The position numbers and the translations under genes were made by a program. A stretch of DNA of 64,000 bases from positions 35,712,001 to 35,776,000 of the forward strand of contig OX597814.1 in assembly GCA_951406725.2 (NCBI GenBank), given 5' to 3'. This document shows positions 14,972 through 54,861 of the stretch, one piece after another. Below the pieces are notes generated by a model. The model saw only the letters and a program-made list of their open reading frames with translations. It was not told the DNA's origin and made no database searches. Position 1 is the stretch's first letter. Each line of letters opens with the position of its first letter. This stretch comes from Octopus vulgaris. Lineage: Eukaryota.

Positions 14972-15624
14972 TGTACATACTTACAAGCATACATACAGAC
15001 ATAAAATATACATACACACACATGTGTGTGTGTGTGTGTGTGTGTGTGTCTGTTTTTGTACATGTATGCATGTATAGTTATTTGTATATTTATATGTAAA
15101 ACGGTTAGTACATCAACATTAAAAGATGTTGCATTTGAATTTCATCACAGAAAGTTTAACCTATTTTCCATTGTTGAGTTAACATTTTCAAATATATACA
15201 TTTTCTTATTATTTCCACAGAAGAATAATGGAGGGCAGACATGGAGAAGTGCTGAATAAAATGGTTTGTAGCATTTAGTGAGGTCCATTTACATTGTGTG
15301 TTCAAATTTTAACTGGGTTGACTTTGTCTTTCATTTACTACAGACCAATATATAAGAGCTAACAGTCAGGTAGGTGCTACAGACAATTCGATTGGCTGTT
15401 TCCTTCCCCAAAACTGTGGCTCTTGTGCCTTTGCAGGATATGAATTTTGAGCTTTCACCGAATCATTTCTTTCATGAAATATTTGCTGAGGAATAGAGTG
15501 GCAACCACTCTCTGATACCATTCCATAGTCCAACCATAAAAAGCAATATTAATATCATGAATATTTTGAGGTGTCATGTAGGCCAGCATTCAAAAATATT
15601 TGTTTTGATTATTGTCAGTAGAAT

Positions 15625-15685
<61 letters not shown>

Positions 15686-15897
15686 TAAATATTAGGGAAT
15701 AAATCCAAACTTACAGGGAAAAATCAGATTTAGGATTGAATCCAATTTTATAGTAAAATATTATATTATATTAAATTAGAGACGAAACCACTATTAGGTA
15801 AATCATACAATGAAAAACTTAAGCCAATACATAAGATTATTTAATTTATATTATTTAAATATATAACAAAATTATTAAAAAAATATAATTAATATAT

Positions 15898-15961
15898 CAC
15901 TACGATCGTTTCATGGCTGTTAATTTCTTTAAATTTTCGAGTTACAGTCATTCATCAGGTG
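15898..15961 (-). ncRNA. Type I hammerhead ribozyme (left arm)
   Basis: Reverse complement of 16016-16079. Confidence 0.75.
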
Positions 15962-16015
15962 GTTTAAATATTTATCTTGGCGAGGTTTAAAGCTCTCCAA
16001 GATAAATATTCAAAC

Positions 16016-16079
16016 CACCTGATGAATGACTGTAACTCGAAAATTTAAAGAAATTAACAGCCATGAAACGATCGTAGTG
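16016..16079 (+). ncRNA. Type I hammerhead ribozyme (right arm)
   Basis: cac-CTGATGA-atgactgt...acagccat-GAAA-cgatcg-TA-gtg; palindromic stem III ACGATCGT, GUA triplet. Confidence 0.75.
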
Positions 16080-16211
16080 ATATATTAATTACATTTTTTA
16101 AATAATTTTGTTATATATTTAAATAATATAAATTAAATAATCTTATGTATTGGCTTAAGTTTTTCATTTTATGATTTGCCTAATAGTGGTTTTGTCTCTA
16201 ATTTAATATAA

Positions 16212-16244
<33 letters not shown>

Positions 16245-16491
16245 GAATATATATATATATATTAAAACATCCTAAATTAAACCAAACAACACATGGCCTT
16301 AATCCCATTGGATCCTAATACCTCAAGGTAATTTTTTCGTGAACAATCATTAAACTCAAGATACACAACGAACTCACAATGTATCGGAGTACTTATTTTT
16401 TAATTTTTATACATATTTATTATTATTCTTTTGCAAAAAACAATGCAACTTTTTTTCCCCTTTCTCATTTTAAAAAACCTTTTCACCTAAC

Positions 16492-16533
16492 TATTCTTGA
16501 TAAGTCAAACTATGACGAAAACCGGTATGAATA
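16492..16533 (+). ncRNA. Minimal type I hammerhead, U3-A8 core variant, in a PLE 3' remnant (~16260-16670)
   Basis: tattc-TTGATAA-gtca-aacta-tgac-GAAA-accggt-a-tgaata; same layout and similar upstream flank as 44160-44197, with an extra base. Confidence 0.55.
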
Positions 16534-16681
16534 AATATATATTTATATAATTTTTCATTTTCTCATTTCATTAAAATTTTCTTTCAATCAAGCATTCTGT
16601 ATTTTTACAATTTTTCCTTGCTTATCATTTCTCCACGTGCGGTCAACACAACCCCACCATTTATTGATCTATATATATGTA

Positions 16682-16905
16682 TATTATGCAATTCAAACAA
16701 TGATAGACCTACGCATTGATGGAAAATAGGCAAAAATTTCTGTGATGAAATTCAAATGCATAAAGTAATTTATGTCTATCATTGTTTAAATTGCATAATA
16801 GTGTTTTTTCTCTAATTTATATATTATATATTTATATTGTGAAATTTGATTTAATACTAAATTGAATTTTTCCCTGTAAGTTTGGAGCTATACTCCCTAA
16901 TATTA
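16682..16905 (+). mobile_element. Short foldback (27-bp arms) plus a pLTR terminus related to 15684-15785
   Basis: tattatgcaattcaaacaatgatagac / gtctatcattgtttaaattgcataata; 16833-16905 is an inverted homologue of 15684-15760 (ccaaacttacagggaaaaat). Confidence 0.6.
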
Positions 16906-37474: not shown

Positions 37475-39761
37475 CTTGCAGAATTGCCCGGCGTTGCTCG
37501 GGGCTGAATTGCTTGAAAGTACTGTTAATGATTGCACTGAATTATGATGATTGTTCAGGCAAATATTGATATAAGTTTACGGCGAATGAATGTATTTGTA
37601 AGTGTATAGAAAGCCGTGTAGAATGGAGTAAGAATTGAATGTGAGGTTGCCTTGAAAAGAGCCATGTTATTGTTCTCATAATTGTAAGAATTTGATAGTC
37701 GTGGAAGGCGGTGTAAAACGTTCGAAGGTGAATAGGGTCTCTTCGTTTTCCACGAACGGCAGCGGATGTGCTATTACAAAACTTCATGCTCTGTTAAAAG
37801 AGAATGGATGCCCTATGTAGGCAAGAGGGGAATGAAGCATGGGTAAGTAAATATGGGTAATTTATAAAATATAGAACAATAGCATCTACTCACCATATGT
37901 CAGACCGGCAAGACTGTAGTGGTGCTGAATAGATGAATCACAACACAGTGGTGGAGATGTTTTCATTGATGGGCGTTTTGATTAAATTTGTTGTTGTATA
38001 AAATGATCTGTTGCTTAGTTTCCAAAGTGTATGTTGCGATCATGTTGTCGCTTGTAAACTTTAACAGTGAGAGTGTAGATGTAGGGGGTAGATGTGTCAT
38101 GTACGTTGGATATAGAAGATGAGGCTGGTGGTTTGATGATGAATGGATAGAAATAGAGTTGAGCGAAGGACAGGTGTTGGTTAAGTGTGAATTAATGTCA
38201 TGAAACGCCTAAAAATGTAAATGCCATCATAAAAGAGAGTCGTATGTAAGTGAAATACTAATGTGTTGGAAAATTATGAAACATAGTAATCCTATAAAAC
38301 CTCCTTGTACACAATGTTTTTTGTTTTTCGTTGTGGAACAAATGTGAAAGCATCACTGTTGCTGCTGACATGCGAGCAGGCAACATAAAGCTGACCATGA
38401 GAGAAACATGGCTCTCCCAAATGTATTCCCGCCACAGACAGTGTTTGACCCTGCGCTTTGTTAATTGACATTGCGAAACATGGCCTTACTGGGAACTGGG
38501 ACCTCCAAAATATGAAAGGTAGGTCTGCTCCTGATGGGAAAAGATGCATCTTCGGTATGAGCACAACGTTGCCTCGACCGCACCCTGTGATAATGGTGGC
38601 CTCAATCAGATTGGGAGATAAGGACTTAACGATCAAACGTGTGCCATTGCATTGTTTTGGGGGAACTAAATTTCTAATGAGCACTATAGGGGAACCAACT
38701 TTAAGTATGAGAATGTGTGGTGGTAGTCCGGGGGGCTCAAAGGAATTGAGTACCTCTATTGGATAGTTGATGACGTCCTCTGGGTCGGGAGTTGTATCAA
38801 TAGAGTTATATACATAGACATCCCCAGGAATGAGTTTTAGCATTTCATCAATAATATGGTGAACAGTTTTATTCCTCGGGGCCAGAATAGCCCTTTGGCC
38901 AATCCAATCCATATTCTGATAATTAGCTTGTAGATCTGGGAACACTGCATCTCTGAGATCAGAAGGCGTTTTAACAATGGTACAAATGGAATCGATGGCA
39001 ATATTACCATTTTCATCCCCTGGTATTTTGCCTTCGCCAAGTGCAAGGAGGGTGTCAGAAAATGCTGCTGATGTGATATCACGTCGTATATGAGCACGCA
39101 TATTGGTGTGAAGTTTGAGAGTCTTCACCAGTGGCCACAATGTGGTTAACTTAAGACACGCATTTACTGCATCAGCTCTAGTCCCTTTGGGAATAATGGG
39201 AAGTGTTTGTCGGAAATCCCCCGAAAGAAGTGTTATGCCTCCCATGGGAGCTGAAGAGTGTTTGATGTCTCTGAGAGATCTATCTAGTGCCTCAAGAGCA
39301 CCTCTGTGGTCCATCGTGCATTCATCCCAAACGATAAGTTTGCATCATCTGAAGACTTCTGCCTGATCGGAGCTGTTACTGATGTTGCAAGTTGGTGTCT
39401 CAGTCTTCGCTAAGTCAAGCGGGAGCTTGAAAGTGGAGTGAGCTGTCCTGCCACCTGGCAACAAAGGAGCCGCAATTCCAGATGATGCCACAGCTAGGGC
39501 AATGCCTTGTGTTCGCCTAATCTCAGCCAATATTAATTTGTTGACAAAAGTTTTCATAGTGCCCCCAGGAGTGTCCAGGAAAAAAATCCCCCCAGCTGAA
39601 TTATAAACGGAGTTGTAAAAAAACTTTATATGCCATGACCCAATCGAATCTACTTGGAAAAATCATAGGTAAATTCCAATTGAAGAAATTCTATATTGTA
39701 GAATTGTATTAAAAAGGAACATGGGAACAGGCAGAGAAAATCTGCCTTTTATCATAAGAGA
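37475..39761 (-). mobile_element. Helitron, internally deleted (Rep absent, helicase retained)
   Basis: Minus strand A|TCTCTTAT 5' end; 3' GC hairpin cccgagcaacgccggg then CAAG|T (CTAG variant); A/T target site, no TSD. Confidence 0.85.
38292..39590 (-). pseudogene. Pif1-family (SF1) helicase domain of Helitron RepHel, frameshifted
   Basis: FLDTPGGTMKTF (damaged Walker A), AVASSGIAA.LLPGGRTAHS, IVWDECTM, GDFRQTLP, CNGTRL, QFPVRPCFAMSINKAQGQTL, FSHGQLYVACS; frameshift near 39345. Confidence 0.92.
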
Positions 39762-39983: not shown

Positions 39984-40043
<60 letters not shown>

Positions 40044-41225
40044 CTCAAGAAAATCAACACAAATTTATCAACATTTTTGAACAAATTCGACTCGACACAT
40101 CAACCCAATCGAGAGAACAATGAGGAAACAGATACGAAAAATACAACCTCCGAAATTGTCGAAAACCTTGGAAACTTATGCGAAACAATTAGAACATTTT
40201 TCTCTAACAACGCTAACCAAGGACCTCCAAACGCGTCATTATATAGGATCAATACTCTAACAACATACCAAATGAAACAACACATAATCCCACAATGGAA
40301 CAAATCACTCAGAGATAGAAAGTTCGCCTTTTGGAAGATGATCCAAAACAACAACAAAGCGGATATATACGAAAAATGGCTCAACCGGACCCCGTTAATC
40401 CTCCCACGTAAATTCCAGTTCAAAGCTATTACAGAGGAACCTGAAACACAAAGACACCTCAGGGAGAGAATGGCACTGGAAAAAATGAAAATGGAAATAG
40501 AACTTCTGAAATTGAGGGCCCAAACGAATGAGGATAAAATAAAATCCACCGATGAAGATATCAACGAAGAAATTCGCAAAATGACCCAAGGCCCAGATCA
40601 AGAGAAGTTCTCCAAACTATGGAAAGAGGACTGTGAAAAAGAAGAACTAAAATCTCTCCAACGCTGGGAGAAAAACGTCATTTGGTTCTCAGACTATGAA
40701 GCCGTCTTTCAAACAGAGCACGCCTCCAACAACCCTTTCCAGAAAATAAGAAAACCAAAACAACACCCAAACACCGATACACACCTGTCTAAAAATCGGA
40801 ACCTTCACTACTTTCAAAAAAAGAACACAGGACCTAACCCTAACTCTGTAAGCAGCCAGCGTTACAATATCAGGAATACCCCCACTTCAAGCAGAGAAAG
40901 GATAAATCAACACCCACAGCATAGACACTGCAACCTTATCCCCATCCAAAAGAGTTACCAACGAAATCTCCGCCCCATAAACCGGTTAAACAACCATGCA
41001 CAACAAACCCACTCCACTTACAATGATTACCAACGAAGGCCTCCTAGAACACCACACCCGAATATGGGATATCGGGATGCTCTCCTCAATACTGCTCCAA
41101 GAACACACACCATAAATCACAACAGGAGACCCCACATCAACAAAGAACAACTATATAATAGCTACCGTCCCAACCACCGCATTCATTTTTTAGACCCAAT
41201 ACGCAAACACAGAGACACAAGATAG
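40044..41225 (+). CDS. PLE ORF1: coiled-coil region with a basic, disordered C-terminal tail; 5'-truncated
   Basis: Frame open from the (TA)n junction; heptad-like [39 protein letters not shown]; same A/C-rich bias as ORF2. Confidence 0.75.
41186..41192 (+). promoter_or_regulatory. Candidate -1 ribosomal frameshift heptamer T TTT TTA
   Basis: In ORF1 register (cat TTT TTA gac), within the 64-nt ORF1/ORF2 overlap; ORF2 is in the -1 frame. Confidence 0.6.
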
Positions 41226-43423
41226 CACCAAACAAGCAGGAGGAACCAAAAGTAATAAAAATTATCAATCTAACTCACAAGGAACTAACAGCAAACCAAA
41301 TTAACATACTTTCCAAAGGACTCAAGTTTACACCCACCCCACAACACCCCAACTACAACGAAATGAAAGAAGACATCGCAGAATTCTGCAGAAAATTAAG
41401 ACTTACTGAGGAGCTATACGATAAATACAACGAGGACGAATCGTTAGCCAGAAATAGGAGTAACTACACCCCCTCGAAAGGTAAGAACAAAACACTTGAT
41501 GATTTCTGTGACCACATATCTAATTACCCATATCAACATATGCACAAACAAAAACACAAACCAAACTTCAGCAAAAAAGAATGGGCTGAGTTGAACAAAT
41601 TAAAACAAGATAAAACAATAACAATCAAAGAGGCCGATAAAGGGAGTGCTGTTGTCTTAATGGATACGACATTTTACATAACTTTGGTACTTTCTATGCT
41701 GGAAGACGCAACATACTATGAAAAGGCACAAAACTACAGTCAACAAAAAATAATGAGGGAACTAAAATCCATATTAAACCCATACAAAGCAGGGCTCACC
41801 GACAAAGAATATGATTATATGACCAATTTCACAAGTAAAACTAGCCAATTCTACGGTATACCCAAGATCCACAAAAGTGAAAAAGTAAGCAACGCATGCA
41901 AGATAGCTACAGACAAAATAATTAAAGTCCATAATCCTAATGACCTCAAATTGAGACCCATAATAGCAGGTCCCGCATGCGAAACCCACCGCCTCAGTAA
42001 CGTTTTAGACACCCTGTTAAAACCACTCCTCAAACATGTCAAAAGCTATATAAGGGACGACTTAGATATGCTCAATCACCTACCGAATACTATAAACAAA
42101 AACACCATACTGGTATCCTTCGATGTAGTCAACCTCTACTCCAATATCCCCCACAACCTAGGACTAGAGGCAATCCAATTCTGGCTAGAGAATCACGCCA
42201 ACGAACTACCACACCGCATCAAAAAAGAATTTGTGATAGAAGGGGTTAAATTCATCCTGCAAAATAACTTCTTCGCCTTCAATGACAACTTCTACCGACA
42301 AAAATCGGGGACTGCGATGGGTACACGAATGGCCCCCTCCTTTGCCAACCTAGTCATAGGATACCTAGAGATTAGTCTGTATCGTAAGGTTCTAGAAAGA
42401 TATGGCAGCCCTTTCTCCATCTACATAGAAAACAACTGGAAGAGATATCTAGATGACTGTTTCATCCTTTGGCATAAAAATATAGAAAAACTCATAGAAT
42501 TCCAGAAAATTTTAAACGGACTGGACGTAAACATCCAATTCACGATGGAATATAGCCAACAACAACTCCCCTTCCTCGATATCCTCATTAAGAAAGCTAA
42601 TAATATAATAGAAACAGACATATACTATAAGCCTACAGACTCTAAGCAATATCTTCCATTCAATTCATGCCACCCCAGACACACCAGGATGAATATCCCC
42701 TTCAATCTAGCAAAAAGGATATGCACTATAGTCTCTAACGCAAACACCAGAGACACACGACTACAAGAACTAAAAGATACCCTTATCACCAGGAACTATC
42801 CACCTTCACTTATTGACAAGTGCATTCAACGTGCCCTTCAACTTAACATCAAGGAACTGAGACATCCCAAATCAAAGAAAAACTTACAACCAAAAGCCTT
42901 ACCATACATCTCCACACACAACCCTCTCAATAACGAAGCCTTCGACACCATCCTCCACAACATACCCCTCCTAAAAAAAGACCACAGAATGAACACAATC
43001 CTCCAAACACACACGATCATAAAAAGCAAAAGACAGCCTAGATCCATGAAAAGTCTCCTTACACAAGCCCGAATTCACTCTTCAACACAGAAGCCGACAG
43101 TAAAAAAATGTGGAAGACCCAATTGCGGGATATGCGACTATCTAATTGAGGGATCAGAGTTCTCCTTCAAACGGGGACAACGGTTTACAGTGAAAAGCAA
43201 CTTCACATGTGCTTCGGAGAACCTAATATACTCACTAACCTGCTCCGGGTGTCAAGAGCAGTACATAGGCCAAACAAAAAATGGTTTGCGTAAACGAATG
43301 GCCCTGCACAGATCCCAGATAAAAATTCCCCAAAACAGAAAAATAGCTTTTAGCCAACACATAGATACTTGCGCCAACAAAAAAAACACCAAACTTCAGA
43401 ATTTCCCCCCTCTACCAATTTAG
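41192..43423 (+). CDS. PLE ORF2: reverse transcriptase + Cys linker + GIY-YIG endonuclease (C-terminus disrupted)
   Basis: IINLT..LSKGLKFTPTP (upstream of the first ATG at 41363), ADKGS, FYGIPKIHK, LRPII, SFDVVNLYSNIP, GTAMG, RYLDD, LPFLD, YYKPTD, CGRPNCGIC, NLIY..C..C..YIGQT; true end (KENLFITKYKPLLN) lies in another frame ending at 43517. Confidence 0.93.
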   Translation, partial: RPNTQTQRHKIAPNKQEEPKVIKIINLTHKELTANQINILSKGLKFTPTPQHPNYNEMKEDIAEFCRKLRLTEELYDKYNEDESLARNRSNYTPSKGKNKTLDDFCDHISNYPYQHMHKQKHKPNFSKKEWAELNKLKQDKTITIKEADKGSAVVLMDTTFYITLVLSMLEDATYYEKAQNYSQQKIMRELKSILNPYKAGLTDKEYDYMTNFTSKTSQFYGIPKIHKSEKVSNACKIATDKIIKVHNPNDLKLRPIIAGPACETHRLSNVLDTLLKPLLKHVKSYIRDDLDMLNHLPNTINKNTILVSFDVVNLYSNIPHNLGLEAIQFWLENHANELPHRIKKEFVIEGVKFILQNNFFAFNDNFYRQKSGTAMGTRMAPSFANLVIGYLEISLYRKVLERYGSPFSIYIENNWKRYLDDCFILWHKNIEKLIEFQKILNGLDVNIQFTMEYSQQQLPFLDILIKKANNIIETDIYYKPTDSKQYLPFNSCHPRHTRMNIPFNLAKRICTIVSNANTRDTRLQELKDTLITRNYPPSLIDKCIQRALQLNIKELRHPKSKKNLQPKALPYISTHNPLNNEAFDTILHNIPLLKKDHRMNTILQTHTIIKSKRQPRSMKSLLTQARIHSSTQKPTVKKCGRPNCGICDYLIEGSEFSFKRGQRFTVKSNFTCASENLIYSLTCSGCQEQYIGQTKNGLRKRMALHRSQIKIPQNRKIAFSQHIDTCANKKNTKLQNFPPLPI

Positions 43424-44159
43424 GGACGATACAACCTCGAGATAACGAATAAGTAAAGAAAATCTCTTTATTACAAAATACAAGCCACTTCTTAACGGGT
43501 CTACGACAAACAATTAATATACCTCAACTTTAGAATAAAAGAAATATATACACACACAAATATTACACTCCATAGAATCCATTACTAATCAGCCCCATCA
43601 CAGCTATACTTACACCCAATCATATTCTCCCTTCTCTGTTTTTTTCTTCTTCTTCTTCTTCCTCTTCTTCATCATCATCATTATCATCATCATCGTCGTC
43701 ATCATCATCACCACCATCATCACCACCATCTTCTCCTTCTCCTTCTTCTTCTTCTTCTTCTTCTTCTTCTTCATCATCATCATCATCATCAACATCGTCA
43801 TCTTCTTCTTCTTCTACTTCTCCACCTTCCACCCCTTAACCTTGTCACTAATGTCTTTCAGTATAACGCCTACGCAAATTCCATAAACAATTCCTGAATT
43901 GAACTGCGACTACTGTCAGCCACTGAACATTCAAAATACGACCATTAAGGCATTCCCAGATTTCCCCACCCCCTCTCCACATCAGCCTCATTATTCTTCA
44001 CCTATCCTACCAAGAACTCAAAACGACCTCGAACACACAAGTACAAACAAGGGAGTCAGAGAAAGGCAGAATGCTACTTATATCTGAACACTACTACAGA
44101 AATATTCTTTTAAAAAAACTTTTCTTCTAATTTTTCTAAATTTAATTATTTAATCGTTA

Positions 44160-44197
44160 CAGTTGAAAAGGTCTCAAAATGACCGAAACCGGTACTG
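44160..44197 (+). ncRNA. Minimal type I hammerhead (U3-A8 variant) in the PLE 3' pLTR
   Basis: cag-TTGAAAA-ggtc-tcaaaat-gacc-GAAA-ccgg-TA-ctg. Confidence 0.75.
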
Positions 44198-44325
44198 AAA
44201 GATTCACTATAAAATCATCTTAGCATTTTCTATTTTTGACTTGTTTTTTCATATATATATATATATATGCATATATGTATGTAACTGGAGAAAGTATATA
44301 GTATTTTGCATTGGAAATCACTTCT

Positions 44326-53079: not shown

Positions 53080-53130
<51 letters not shown>

Positions 53131-53278
53131 CAGTTTAAGTAATTAAGATCCAAGTGAATTCTAATGAATTCACATGAATATGGTCCTTAACTAGGATGCA
53201 CTGGAAATCTATATGGTGTTAACCATACAAGTGGGGTGATTACAAATAGGAAAAAAGCAACAAGAATGGATTAAAATC

Positions 53279-53362
53279 TCGGTACAATTGTTTCGTACGA
53301 GGACATCTTTAATAAGCTACAAAAAATGCAGTAAATATAGATGGCTCATACTCGTCAGCCGA
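53279..53362 (-). ncRNA. Type I hammerhead ribozyme (left arm)
   Basis: Minus: tcgg-CTGACGA-gtatgag...ctcgtac-GAAA-caattg-TA-ccga. Confidence 0.82.
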
Positions 53363-53680
53363 AAAAACATCAGAGATTCCCAAACATCAAAAGGGGTAGA
53401 TACAAATGAGGGTGTAAGTTTAACTGCATTGAAGAAAGTTCGATTCCTGGAGATCCGATGAAAGGTCTTGAACTTACAGAATTTGTGCATGACTGTATCC
53501 AAAATTTCTTCACATAACTTGATTAACAATTCACTATGAGCTATATATGGACATGCACAAATTCTGTAAGTTTAAGACCTTTCATCGGATCTCCAGGAAT
53601 CGAACTTTCTTCAATGCAGTTAAACTTACACCCTCATTTGTATCTACCCCTTTTGATGTTTGGGAATCTCTGATATTTTT

Positions 53681-53764
53681 TTGGCTGACGAGTATGAGCC
53701 ATCTATATTTACTGCATTTTTTGTAGCTTATTAAAGATGTCCTCGTACGAAACAATTGTACCGA
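53681..53764 (+). ncRNA. Type I hammerhead ribozyme (right arm)
   Basis: ttgg-CTGACGA-gtatgag...ctcgtac-GAAA-caattg-TA-ccga; palindromic ACAATTGT. Confidence 0.82.
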
Positions 53765-54861
53765 GATTTTAATCCATTCTTGTTGCTTTTTTCCTATATA
53801 TATATATATATATATATAAACACACACACACACAGATATATAAATAAATAAATGGAGTTTAACGCAGGTATAATTCAAATATTTTTACTTCCGACACATG
53901 TTTTGAAGATTTCACTGATATTATTCCAATGGAATAAATGGTGTACTACAATGTAATCTTCTCTTCAGGGAAGTGAAAAAATTCCATGTAAATCCGAAGT
54001 TTCTACCTTTAAAAACAAGGAGTTGCAACCTCTTTACTTGTGTAATTTTTTGCTATCCTGGTAACTATTTATCTATTTTTTCCATGTTGATTGTTAACAA
54101 GGGAAAAATACACTCATCTATATCTCTCTCTCTATATATATATTTGACAGAGGGAGTTAGAACACCTACAATGCTAGTGAGAATTATAGTCTTCCCTTTT
54201 GGTGATACATTGCTAAACAATGCATATATAAGTGTGTGTGTGTATGTATGACTATATATGTGTGTGTGTGTACCTCTTTGTATGTCTGTGTTTGTTCCCC
54301 CCACCATCACTTGACAACAGATGCTGGTGTGTTTATAGCCTTGTAACTTAGCAGTTCAGCAAAAGCTACCAACAGAATATGTACAAGGCTTATAAATAAT
54401 AAGTCCTGGGGCCAATTTGTTCAACTAAAGCAGTGCTCCAGTTTGGCCATAGTCAAATGACTGAAACAAATAGAAGAATAAAGAATAAAAGAATATATAT
54501 ATACATATCTTAAATTCTAACATTTTCTAACATGATTCTTATAGACAGTCAGCTAAGAAACCATCTTCTTTCACTCTATACATATATGCTACATGAACAT
54601 AATAATATCTCTTAATTCCTAGACAAGTGCATAAGACCAGCTCTCTTCACATTAAGTGAATGTAAAACAAATCTTTTTGATGTAATGACAAACTCTAGCA
54701 GGAAGCACTTCTAGATCATCTGGTAACTATACCTGTCATCAAAATGTGTTCAGAAATACACTAACATACTTATGGTGATTTTTTTGAACACACTATTTTG
54801 TCTGTAGCAAGATATATATGTTAGAACTCATTGAGTAAGAATACAGCCATGTGTCTAAAAG

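What the first reader, a model, noticed from the sequence alone, without database searches (positions are those of the whole stretch)
53246..53797. Foldback element with twin back-to-back hammerhead ribozymes (~246-bp arms)
Seen: a near-perfect inverted repeat with a 60-nt loop; each arm carries a complete type I HHR (CTGACGA / 7-bp stem II / GAAA-CAATTG-TA), minus strand on the left and plus strand on the right; (TA)n tracts are on both sides. Known: PLE pLTRs carry minimal HHRs and can occur inverted. Inference: a non-coding, strand-symmetric ribozyme element. A transcript from either strand has an antisense HHR followed by an HHR, so it can form a ~250-bp dsRNA (ribozyme masked; substrate for ADAR or small-RNA processing) or self-cleave if the first arm is absent.
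Basis: partly seen in the sequence, partly recalled or inferred. Interest (0 to 1): 0.8.

Follow-up and report, generated by a model that had tools for sequence, protein, structure and literature searches.

The report
Penelope-type foldback stub with fixed hinge
This mirror-image pair of hammerhead motifs is one copy of a multi-copy repeat family and is likely an ordinary insertion stump of a Penelope-like jumping gene; the only unusual feature is that diverged copies appear to fold at the same point.

Summary
The inverted repeat (246-bp arms, 3 mismatches, 60-nt spacer) and both type I hammerhead motifs are real. The element is larger than reported. A 113-bp tail (53133-53245) on the left arm only is part of the family and abuts the left (TA)n. 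Laying one arm on public contigs shows a multi-copy family (531-740 contigs in each of three DNA-type runs, two organisms) with two alternative 3' ends and a recurrent fold point, so it is not an assembly artefact. Both arms share six minority letters, so they were likely copied from one template at insertion. Head-to-head arms, one-sided tail, hammerhead near the 3' end and a (TA)n target match the published Penelope-like (PLE) insertion structure. Opposite-strand hammerhead pairs 100-700 bp apart were reported in 2014. A second, unrelated foldback of the same build lies in this window, and the scan noted similar stubs in other genomes (unchecked notes). The two ribozymes cannot dimerise in cis and are masked in read-through RNA. 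No parent ORF, cleavage or expression was shown. Residual interest: a fixed hinge and a long tail.

The parts
53084..53127 (.). (TA)22 tract, left insertion target
   Evidence: sequence; an independent copy in run X9 also starts at 53133 after (TA)n (tables 7 and 8)
53133..53245 (-). 113-bp one-sided tail (long 3' end of the family)
   Evidence: covered in 4 of 4 runs; 10 of 30 variable places lie here; 2 of 32 listed pieces bridge tail and arm with >=31 letters each side
53246..53491 (-). left (inverted) arm, 246 bp
53277..53364 (-). type I hammerhead motif, left; core 53358, predicted cut after 53283 on the minus strand
53492..53551 (.). 60-nt spacer (hinge); family sequence, not captured from this window; TATA-like word at its right end (untested)
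   Evidence: covered in 4 of 4 runs, junction variants in 3 of 4; no second copy in window
53552..53797 (+). right arm, ending at the family's short 3' end
   Evidence: 6 of 32 listed contig pieces begin exactly at the mirror position 53246, in 4 of 4 runs
53679..53766 (+). type I hammerhead motif, right; core 53685, predicted cut after 53760; C>T at 53682 weakens helix I
53795..53818 (.). (TA)12 tract, right insertion target
   Evidence: sequence

Best explanation
The locus is one young copy of a multi-copy repeat family and is likely an ORF-less insertion stub of an endonuclease-bearing Penelope-like retroelement, with two head-to-head copies of its hammerhead-bearing 3' end likely made from one RNA template during insertion into (TA)n. 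Shown: the family has two 3' ends 113 bp apart, each arm ends at one of them, and diverged copies share the arm-spacer junction. Inferred: a PLE enzyme acting in trans cut the (TA)n target and primed cDNA twice, once from the long end and once from the short end. The two cDNAs were then joined at a built-in hinge, a short stem of about 15 bp around the 60-nt spacer (about 55% within this model). Self-primed fold-back of a single cDNA at the same hinge is the close alternative (about 45%). The hammerhead is a passenger of the terminal repeat. It would cut only as a trans dimer through its palindromic helix III, or with protein help, and is masked in any RNA that spans both arms.
For: Family, not locus-specific: 725, 740, 531 and 28 contigs laid in X1, X2, X3 and X9. 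Two 3' ends: summed depth steps up about 2-3 fold at 53246 in 4 of 4 runs, and 6 of 32 listed pieces start exactly there. One template: at 19 of 19 variable arm places both arms carry the same letter, at 6 of 19 that letter is the minority in 4 of 4 runs, and at 53348 it is <=1%. Recurrent hinge: loose ends behind 53491 match the reversed spacer end with 2-3 substitutions or a short deletion (6 contigs in X1, 2 in X3, 2 in X9), plus an opposite-strand joint 53491/53546 in X9. Helix III palindrome kept by a double change at 53286/53289 with equal depth in X3 and X9. Same build in an unrelated family at 15685-16215. An RT + GIY-YIG element with a 3' hammerhead ending in (TA)n lies at about 40043-44250. 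Literature: inverted 5'-truncated copy, one-sided tail and (TA)n bias (PMC8557442); head-to-head inverted pLTRs with junction palindromes (PMC3846280); two RT start sites bounding the tail, both strands cut and extended, HHR protein-assisted and dispensable in vitro (PMC11167929).
Against: No parent ORF was linked to the family: 0 hits for the 35-aa plus frame, 0 of 2 candidates for the 78-aa minus frame, no Pfam hit, and no similarity to the window's autonomous PLE (best E 0.38). The tail is 113 bp against the published 30-40 bp. The helix II extension (43 nt) is unusually long, and the extra base after A9 typical of PLE min-HHRs is absent. The hinge evidence comes from short contigs, none spanning the stretch; 24 loose-end rows were shown and 122 were not. 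Two other junctions (53367 and 53426/53513, both in X2) show the fold point is not absolute. Summed depths are not copy numbers.
Confidence: 0.78

Rival explanations
1. A dedicated non-autonomous foldback element that is transcribed and retrotransposed as a whole (inverted arm, spacer, arm, tail), with arms kept alike by gene conversion or cruciform repair.
For: Both arm-spacer junctions occur in other copies: contigs across 53500 reach depths of 3725 (X1) and 4740 (X3), and the spacer-to-right-arm junction recurs in 3 of 4 runs. No parent ORF was found.
Against: The arms are 98.8% alike yet share 6 minority letters, which would need continual homogenisation. Summed spacer depth is roughly a tenth of arm depth near the 3' end, so most family sequence is not in this form (rough). 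A -470 kcal/mol hairpin is a poor RT template (inference).
Confidence: 0.12
2. A MITE-like or Foldback DNA transposon with long terminal inverted repeats inserted into TA, which happens to carry hammerheads.
For: Long near-perfect inverted repeats, a TA context, no ORF.
Against: The family continues 113 bp beyond the left repeat, so the repeats are not terminal. Depth falls from the 3' end towards the spacer, as expected for 5'-truncated retrocopies. The hammerhead is of PLE type.
Confidence: 0.04
3. A host-exapted double-stranded-RNA or ribozyme switch at this locus (ADAR substrate or small-RNA source).
For: Any read-through RNA folds into a roughly 246-bp duplex.
Against: The copy is young (3 differences in 246 bp) and is one of many. 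The right-arm helix I is already weakened. No host exon was identified nearby: among the 150 longest of 197 filtered frames, Pfam hits were PIF1 (Helitron) and two weak matches below cut-off.
Confidence: 0.04
4. Assembly artefact (a false palindrome).
For: Foldbacks can arise from chimeric reads (general knowledge); no long read was available.
Against: The arms differ at 3 places and end differently, and the same junctions occur in independent public contigs of two organisms.
Confidence: 0.02

Closest known systems
Canonical EN+ PLE insertion structure: inverted 5'-truncated pLTR with one-sided tail (Craig et al. 2021, PMC8557442; Arkhipova et al. 2013, PMC3846280)
   Same: Head-to-head inverted terminal copies, inverted copy shorter at its 5' side, tail on one end, hammerhead near the 3' end, (TA)n target (Neptune, Hydra, Naiad).
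   Different: No ORF in this copy; tail 113 bp rather than 30-40 bp; 60-nt spacer with a fold point shared by diverged copies; clade and parent unknown.
Dual opposite-strand min-HHRs of Schistosoma mansoni Cercyon PLEs (Cervera and De la Pena 2014, PMC4209133)
   Same: Two type I hammerheads 100-700 bp apart on opposite strands (here about 330 bp between cores), attributed to truncated PLEs; 7-bp helix II, G10.1-C11.1 pair, palindromic helix III region.
   Different: Here helix III has 2 bp plus a tetraloop, helix II has a 43-nt extension, and there is no extra base after A9.
Non-LTR retrozymes (PMC7229834; bioRxiv 10.64898/2026.07.22.740005)
   Same: Non-coding, about 300-400 bp, type I hammerhead with palindromic helix III, PLE-related.
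   Different: Retrozymes are head-to-tail tandems whose hammerheads can dimerise in cis and release circles. This is head-to-head, with one sense hammerhead per strand.

Membership tests
Penelope-like element (EN+) | RT plus GIY-YIG ORF | tested here: not met
   No ORF in this copy; so filed as a PLE-type stub by structure, not as an autonomous PLE
Penelope-like element (EN+) | Type I hammerhead near the 3' end of the terminal repeat | tested here: met
   Cut site 37 nt from the short end and 150 nt from the long end
Penelope-like element (EN+) | Inverted 5'-truncated copy joined head-to-head | tested here: met
Penelope-like element (EN+) | Tail on one end only (published 30-40 bp) | tested here: met
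   One-sided family tail, but 113 bp
Penelope-like element (EN+) | (TA)n target preference (Neptune, Hydra, Naiad) | tested here: met
   Both ends abut (TA)n; a second copy in X9 does too
Penelope-like element (EN+) | Physical link of this terminal repeat to an autonomous parent | not testable with these tools
   No genome held; contigs too short; collection scans empty or chance
Type I hammerhead ribozyme | Invariant core and helices I-III | tested here: met
   none of the 30 variable places listed hits an invariant core base (weak: about 2 expected by chance)
Type I hammerhead ribozyme | Rfam gathering-score match | tested here: not met
   PLE-type variants with a long helix II may fall outside the models (inference)
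Type I hammerhead ribozyme | Self-cleavage | not testable with these tools
   Folding only: helix III probability <=0.02 as a monomer
Non-LTR retrozyme | Head-to-tail tandem units, each with a hammerhead | tested here: not met
   Head-to-head; no tandem unit in the window; no tail-to-head joint among the 2 joints listed
MITE / Foldback DNA transposon | Inverted repeats at both termini | tested here: not met
   Family extends 113 bp past the left repeat
MITE / Foldback DNA transposon | Fixed target-site duplication | tested here: inconclusive
   Hidden in (TA)n

The most novel reading that the evidence does not exclude
This PLE family has a programmed hinge. A built-in stem of about 15 bp around a 60-nt spacer joins two cDNAs primed from both cut strands at two RT start sites 113 bp apart, so the family reproducibly lays down foldbacks with an invariant centre, arms renewed at every insertion, and a tail three times the known length. 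Its many copies would then be a natural data set that separates twin priming from self-priming as the source of PLE inverted repeats.
Probability: 0.3. Interest if true: 0.55.

Novelty: new member of a known kind. Interest (0 to 1): 0.3.

Why it matters
As it stands it is an ordinary example of a described PLE insertion product and does not define a new ribozyme system. How PLEs make inverted repeats and tails is stated as unresolved in PMC8557442 and PMC11167929. A family with a fixed fold point and two well separated 3' ends would make that question testable from genome sequence alone. With at least two such foldbacks in 64 kb, these stubs could also be a common source of long double-stranded RNA in this genome (untested).

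Tried and rejected
No whole genome is held, so genome-wide counts of foldback versus solo copies were not possible. Rfam: no hammerhead hit; the miRNA-precursor hits below gathering score reflect the hairpin only. My first idea that 53133-53245 was flank and the empty site a plain (TA)n with a short TSD was rejected. The idea that loose ends before 53436/53448 were a parent ORF's C-terminus was rejected: by eye they are the same arm with an insertion of about 19 bp, and the window's 35-aa frame found 0 proteins. The notebook entry on this is superseded. A third upstream sequence before 53477/53487 (X2, X3, X9; 1-2 contigs each) may be the parent's body but could not be followed. Minus-strand 78-aa frame: 0 of 2 candidates (weak evidence). 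Collection scans: metagenomes gave 0 and 2 GC-rich chance matches with no similarity to the element; viral gave 0; prokaryote genomes gave 0. Expression: no RNA holder listed; X9 is only guessed to be RNA, so it is not used as evidence of transcription. Earlier-findings look-ups by sequence and by place were empty, as was one by words. Six short motifs were not found in the one supplementary file held for PMC8557442. The PMC13282606 supplement was listed but not read, and bioRxiv supplements are closed; a family consensus could be in any of these or in Repbase/Dfam, which I could not search. PDB sequence search with the neighbouring PLE ORF: 0 hits.

Full report
Observation. The inverted repeat is real: arms 53246-53491 and 53552-53797 align over 246 bp with 3 mismatches (53361/53682, 53368/53675, 53470/53573) and a 60-nt spacer. 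Each arm holds a type I hammerhead motif: core at 53685 (+) and 53358 (-), 7-bp helix II with a 43-nt structured extension, 2-bp helix III closed by a palindromic loop, 6-bp helix I, and H17 at 53760 and 53283. A relaxed descriptor found 6 motifs in the window against a mean of 0.3 in 40 shuffles. Rfam gave no hammerhead match. The window is AT-rich and microsatellite-rich animal-type DNA; it reminded me of octopus genomes, but that is recalled, not tested. No genome is held.

Family evidence. Twenty of 24 listed runs, from 9 studies and 4 organism codes, hold part of 53128-53551. I laid 4 of them (X1, X2, X9 organism A; X3 organism B) on tail, left arm and spacer: 725, 740, 531 and 28 contigs for X1, X2, X3 and X9, all 29 bins covered, and no piece spanning the whole stretch. 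(a) The 113 bp left of the arm is family sequence: 10 of 30 variable places lie in it, 2 of 32 listed pieces bridge it to the arm by the tool's 31-letter rule, and an X9 contig starts at 53133 straight after (TA)n. (b) There is a second, short end at 53246: summed depth rises about 2-3 fold there in 4 of 4 runs and 6 of 32 listed pieces begin exactly there. So the element is about 53133-53797, with the long end on the left arm and the short end on the right. (c) The hinge recurs. Among 24 loose-end rows shown (122 not shown), those behind 53491 read as the reversed right end of the spacer with 2-3 substitutions in about 24 letters (X1 6 contigs, X3 2) or with a short deletion (X9 2), and X9 has an opposite-strand joint 53491/53546; these comparisons were made by eye. 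Contigs across 53500 reach depths of 3725 and 4740. Two X2 junctions differ (arm stopping at 53367 or 53426 and joining spacer sequence); these are either other fold points or later deletions. Contigs in X2, X3 and X9 (1-2 each) show a different sequence upstream of the last 5-15 arm letters, a candidate for the parent's body. (d) Summed depth falls from the 3' end to the spacer by roughly tenfold, as expected for 5'-truncated retrocopies, though the tool warns that such sums are not copy numbers.

The arms were likely copied from one template. At 19 of 19 variable arm places both arms carry the same letter. At 6 of the 19 that letter is the minority in 4 of 4 runs, and at 53348 it makes up 1% or less. 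The 3 arm-to-arm mismatches are not among the listed variable places. This fits one young insertion whose arms were made together, not two independent insertions, and it fits a foldback inherited whole only with continual homogenisation.

The ribozyme. Family variants keep the fold: 53348 restores a C-G pair in helix II, 53354 is the free N7, and 53286/53289 change together (equal depth in X3 and X9) and keep the helix III palindrome. That is a single covariation event, but it is the one expected for a dimer-type hammerhead. As a monomer helix III has probability <=0.02. In the full foldback helices I and II have probability 0.0 on both strands (MFE about -470 kcal/mol). A rough estimate on 103-nt fragments gives -6.4 kcal/mol for the intermolecular palindrome, against an opening cost per monomer of 2.0 (left) and 3.6 (right, weakened by C>T at 53682). 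Each strand has only one sense hammerhead, so the pair cannot dimerise in cis. Cleavage and expression were not tested; no RNA holder is on record.

Context. The same build recurs in an unrelated family at 15685-16215: (TA)n, a 77-bp one-sided stretch, 227-bp arms at 96%, no spacer, a hammerhead on each arm, (TA)n. An RT + GIY-YIG element (Pfam RVT_1 E 2e-8; GIY-YIG E 0.005, below cut-off) at about 40043-44250 has a U3-A8 hammerhead at 44163 and ends in (TA)n. It is not the parent (best BLAST E 0.38). Two unrelated foldbacks in 64 kb point to a general insertion mechanism rather than a special element.

Mechanism. Shown: two family 3' ends, one per arm; shared minority letters; recurrent junctions; (TA)n at both ends. 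Inferred: a PLE RT-endonuclease acting in trans cut (TA)n and primed two cDNAs from the two start sites, which met at a short native stem flanking the spacer. Self-primed fold-back of one cDNA is nearly as good, and the data do not settle which arm-spacer junction is native. No parent ORF was found, so PLE parentage rests on structure.

Comparison with the literature. PMC8557442 (passages, outline and the Hydra section read) describes an adjacent inverted 5'-truncated copy, a 30-40-bp tail at one end, hammerheads in pLTRs and (TA)n bias. PMC3846280 (passages and Discussion) describes head-to-head inverted pLTRs, the inverted one shorter, with junction palindromes read as self-priming. PMC4209133 (parts 1-2 of 4) reports dual min-HHRs about 100-700 bp apart on opposite strands, the U3-A8 core, and dimer-dependent weak cleavage. 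PMC11167929 (parts 1-2 of 4) shows cutting and extension of both strands, two RT start sites bounding the tail, and a protein-assisted, dispensable hammerhead. Retrozymes are tandem (PMC7229834, passages; bioRxiv 10.64898/2026.07.22.740005, part 1 of 5 and passages). PMC13282606 and PMC8969392 were seen as passages only. Seven searches of an open-access library, judged mostly from titles and abstract openings, showed no paper on this family or on a family-fixed hinge; subscription papers, Repbase and Dfam were not covered. Earlier notes of this scan describe similar PLE foldback stubs in other genomes; they are unchecked and are not counted as support.

Verdict. A new member of a known kind: a PLE-type head-to-head insertion stub. 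Interest 0.3. The boldest reading not excluded is a programmed hinge that makes the origin of PLE inverted repeats testable (probability 0.3, interest 0.55).

Noticed in passing
window 15685-16215: Second foldback of an unrelated family: (TA)n, 77-bp one-sided stretch, 227-bp arms (96%), no spacer, imperfect hairpin at the centre, hammerheads at 15958 (-) and 16019 (+), (TA)n.
   Followed up: partly
window 16682-16905: Possible third mini-foldback: 30-bp arms and a 59-nt spacer, continuing into sequence 80% like the second family's 3' end. 42 bp of its spacer match 15130-15171 (93%, reversed), 1.5 kb away, a possible capture of neighbouring DNA at the hinge.
   Followed up: partly
window 16270-16660: Likely 5'-truncated PLE end after (TA)n: a short open frame ending like a GIY-YIG C-terminus (recalled resemblance) and a U3-A8 hammerhead at 16497 (+).
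   Followed up: partly
window 40043-44250: Near-complete PLE (393-aa upstream frame, 753-aa RT + GIY-YIG frame with a CxxxxCxxC linker, Neptune-like by recall), between (TA)n tracts, with a U3-A8 hammerhead at 44163.
   Followed up: partly
window 38292-39662: PIF1 helicase fragments on the minus strand (Pfam E 1.7e-27 and 2.9e-24), likely a broken Helitron.
   Followed up: no
window 15200-15260: Pyrimidine tract plus AG followed by purine-rich sequence, a possible splice acceptor and host exon on the plus strand.
   Followed up: no
loose end behind 53367 (run X2): One family variant has its inverted arm stopping just outside hammerhead helix I.
   Followed up: no
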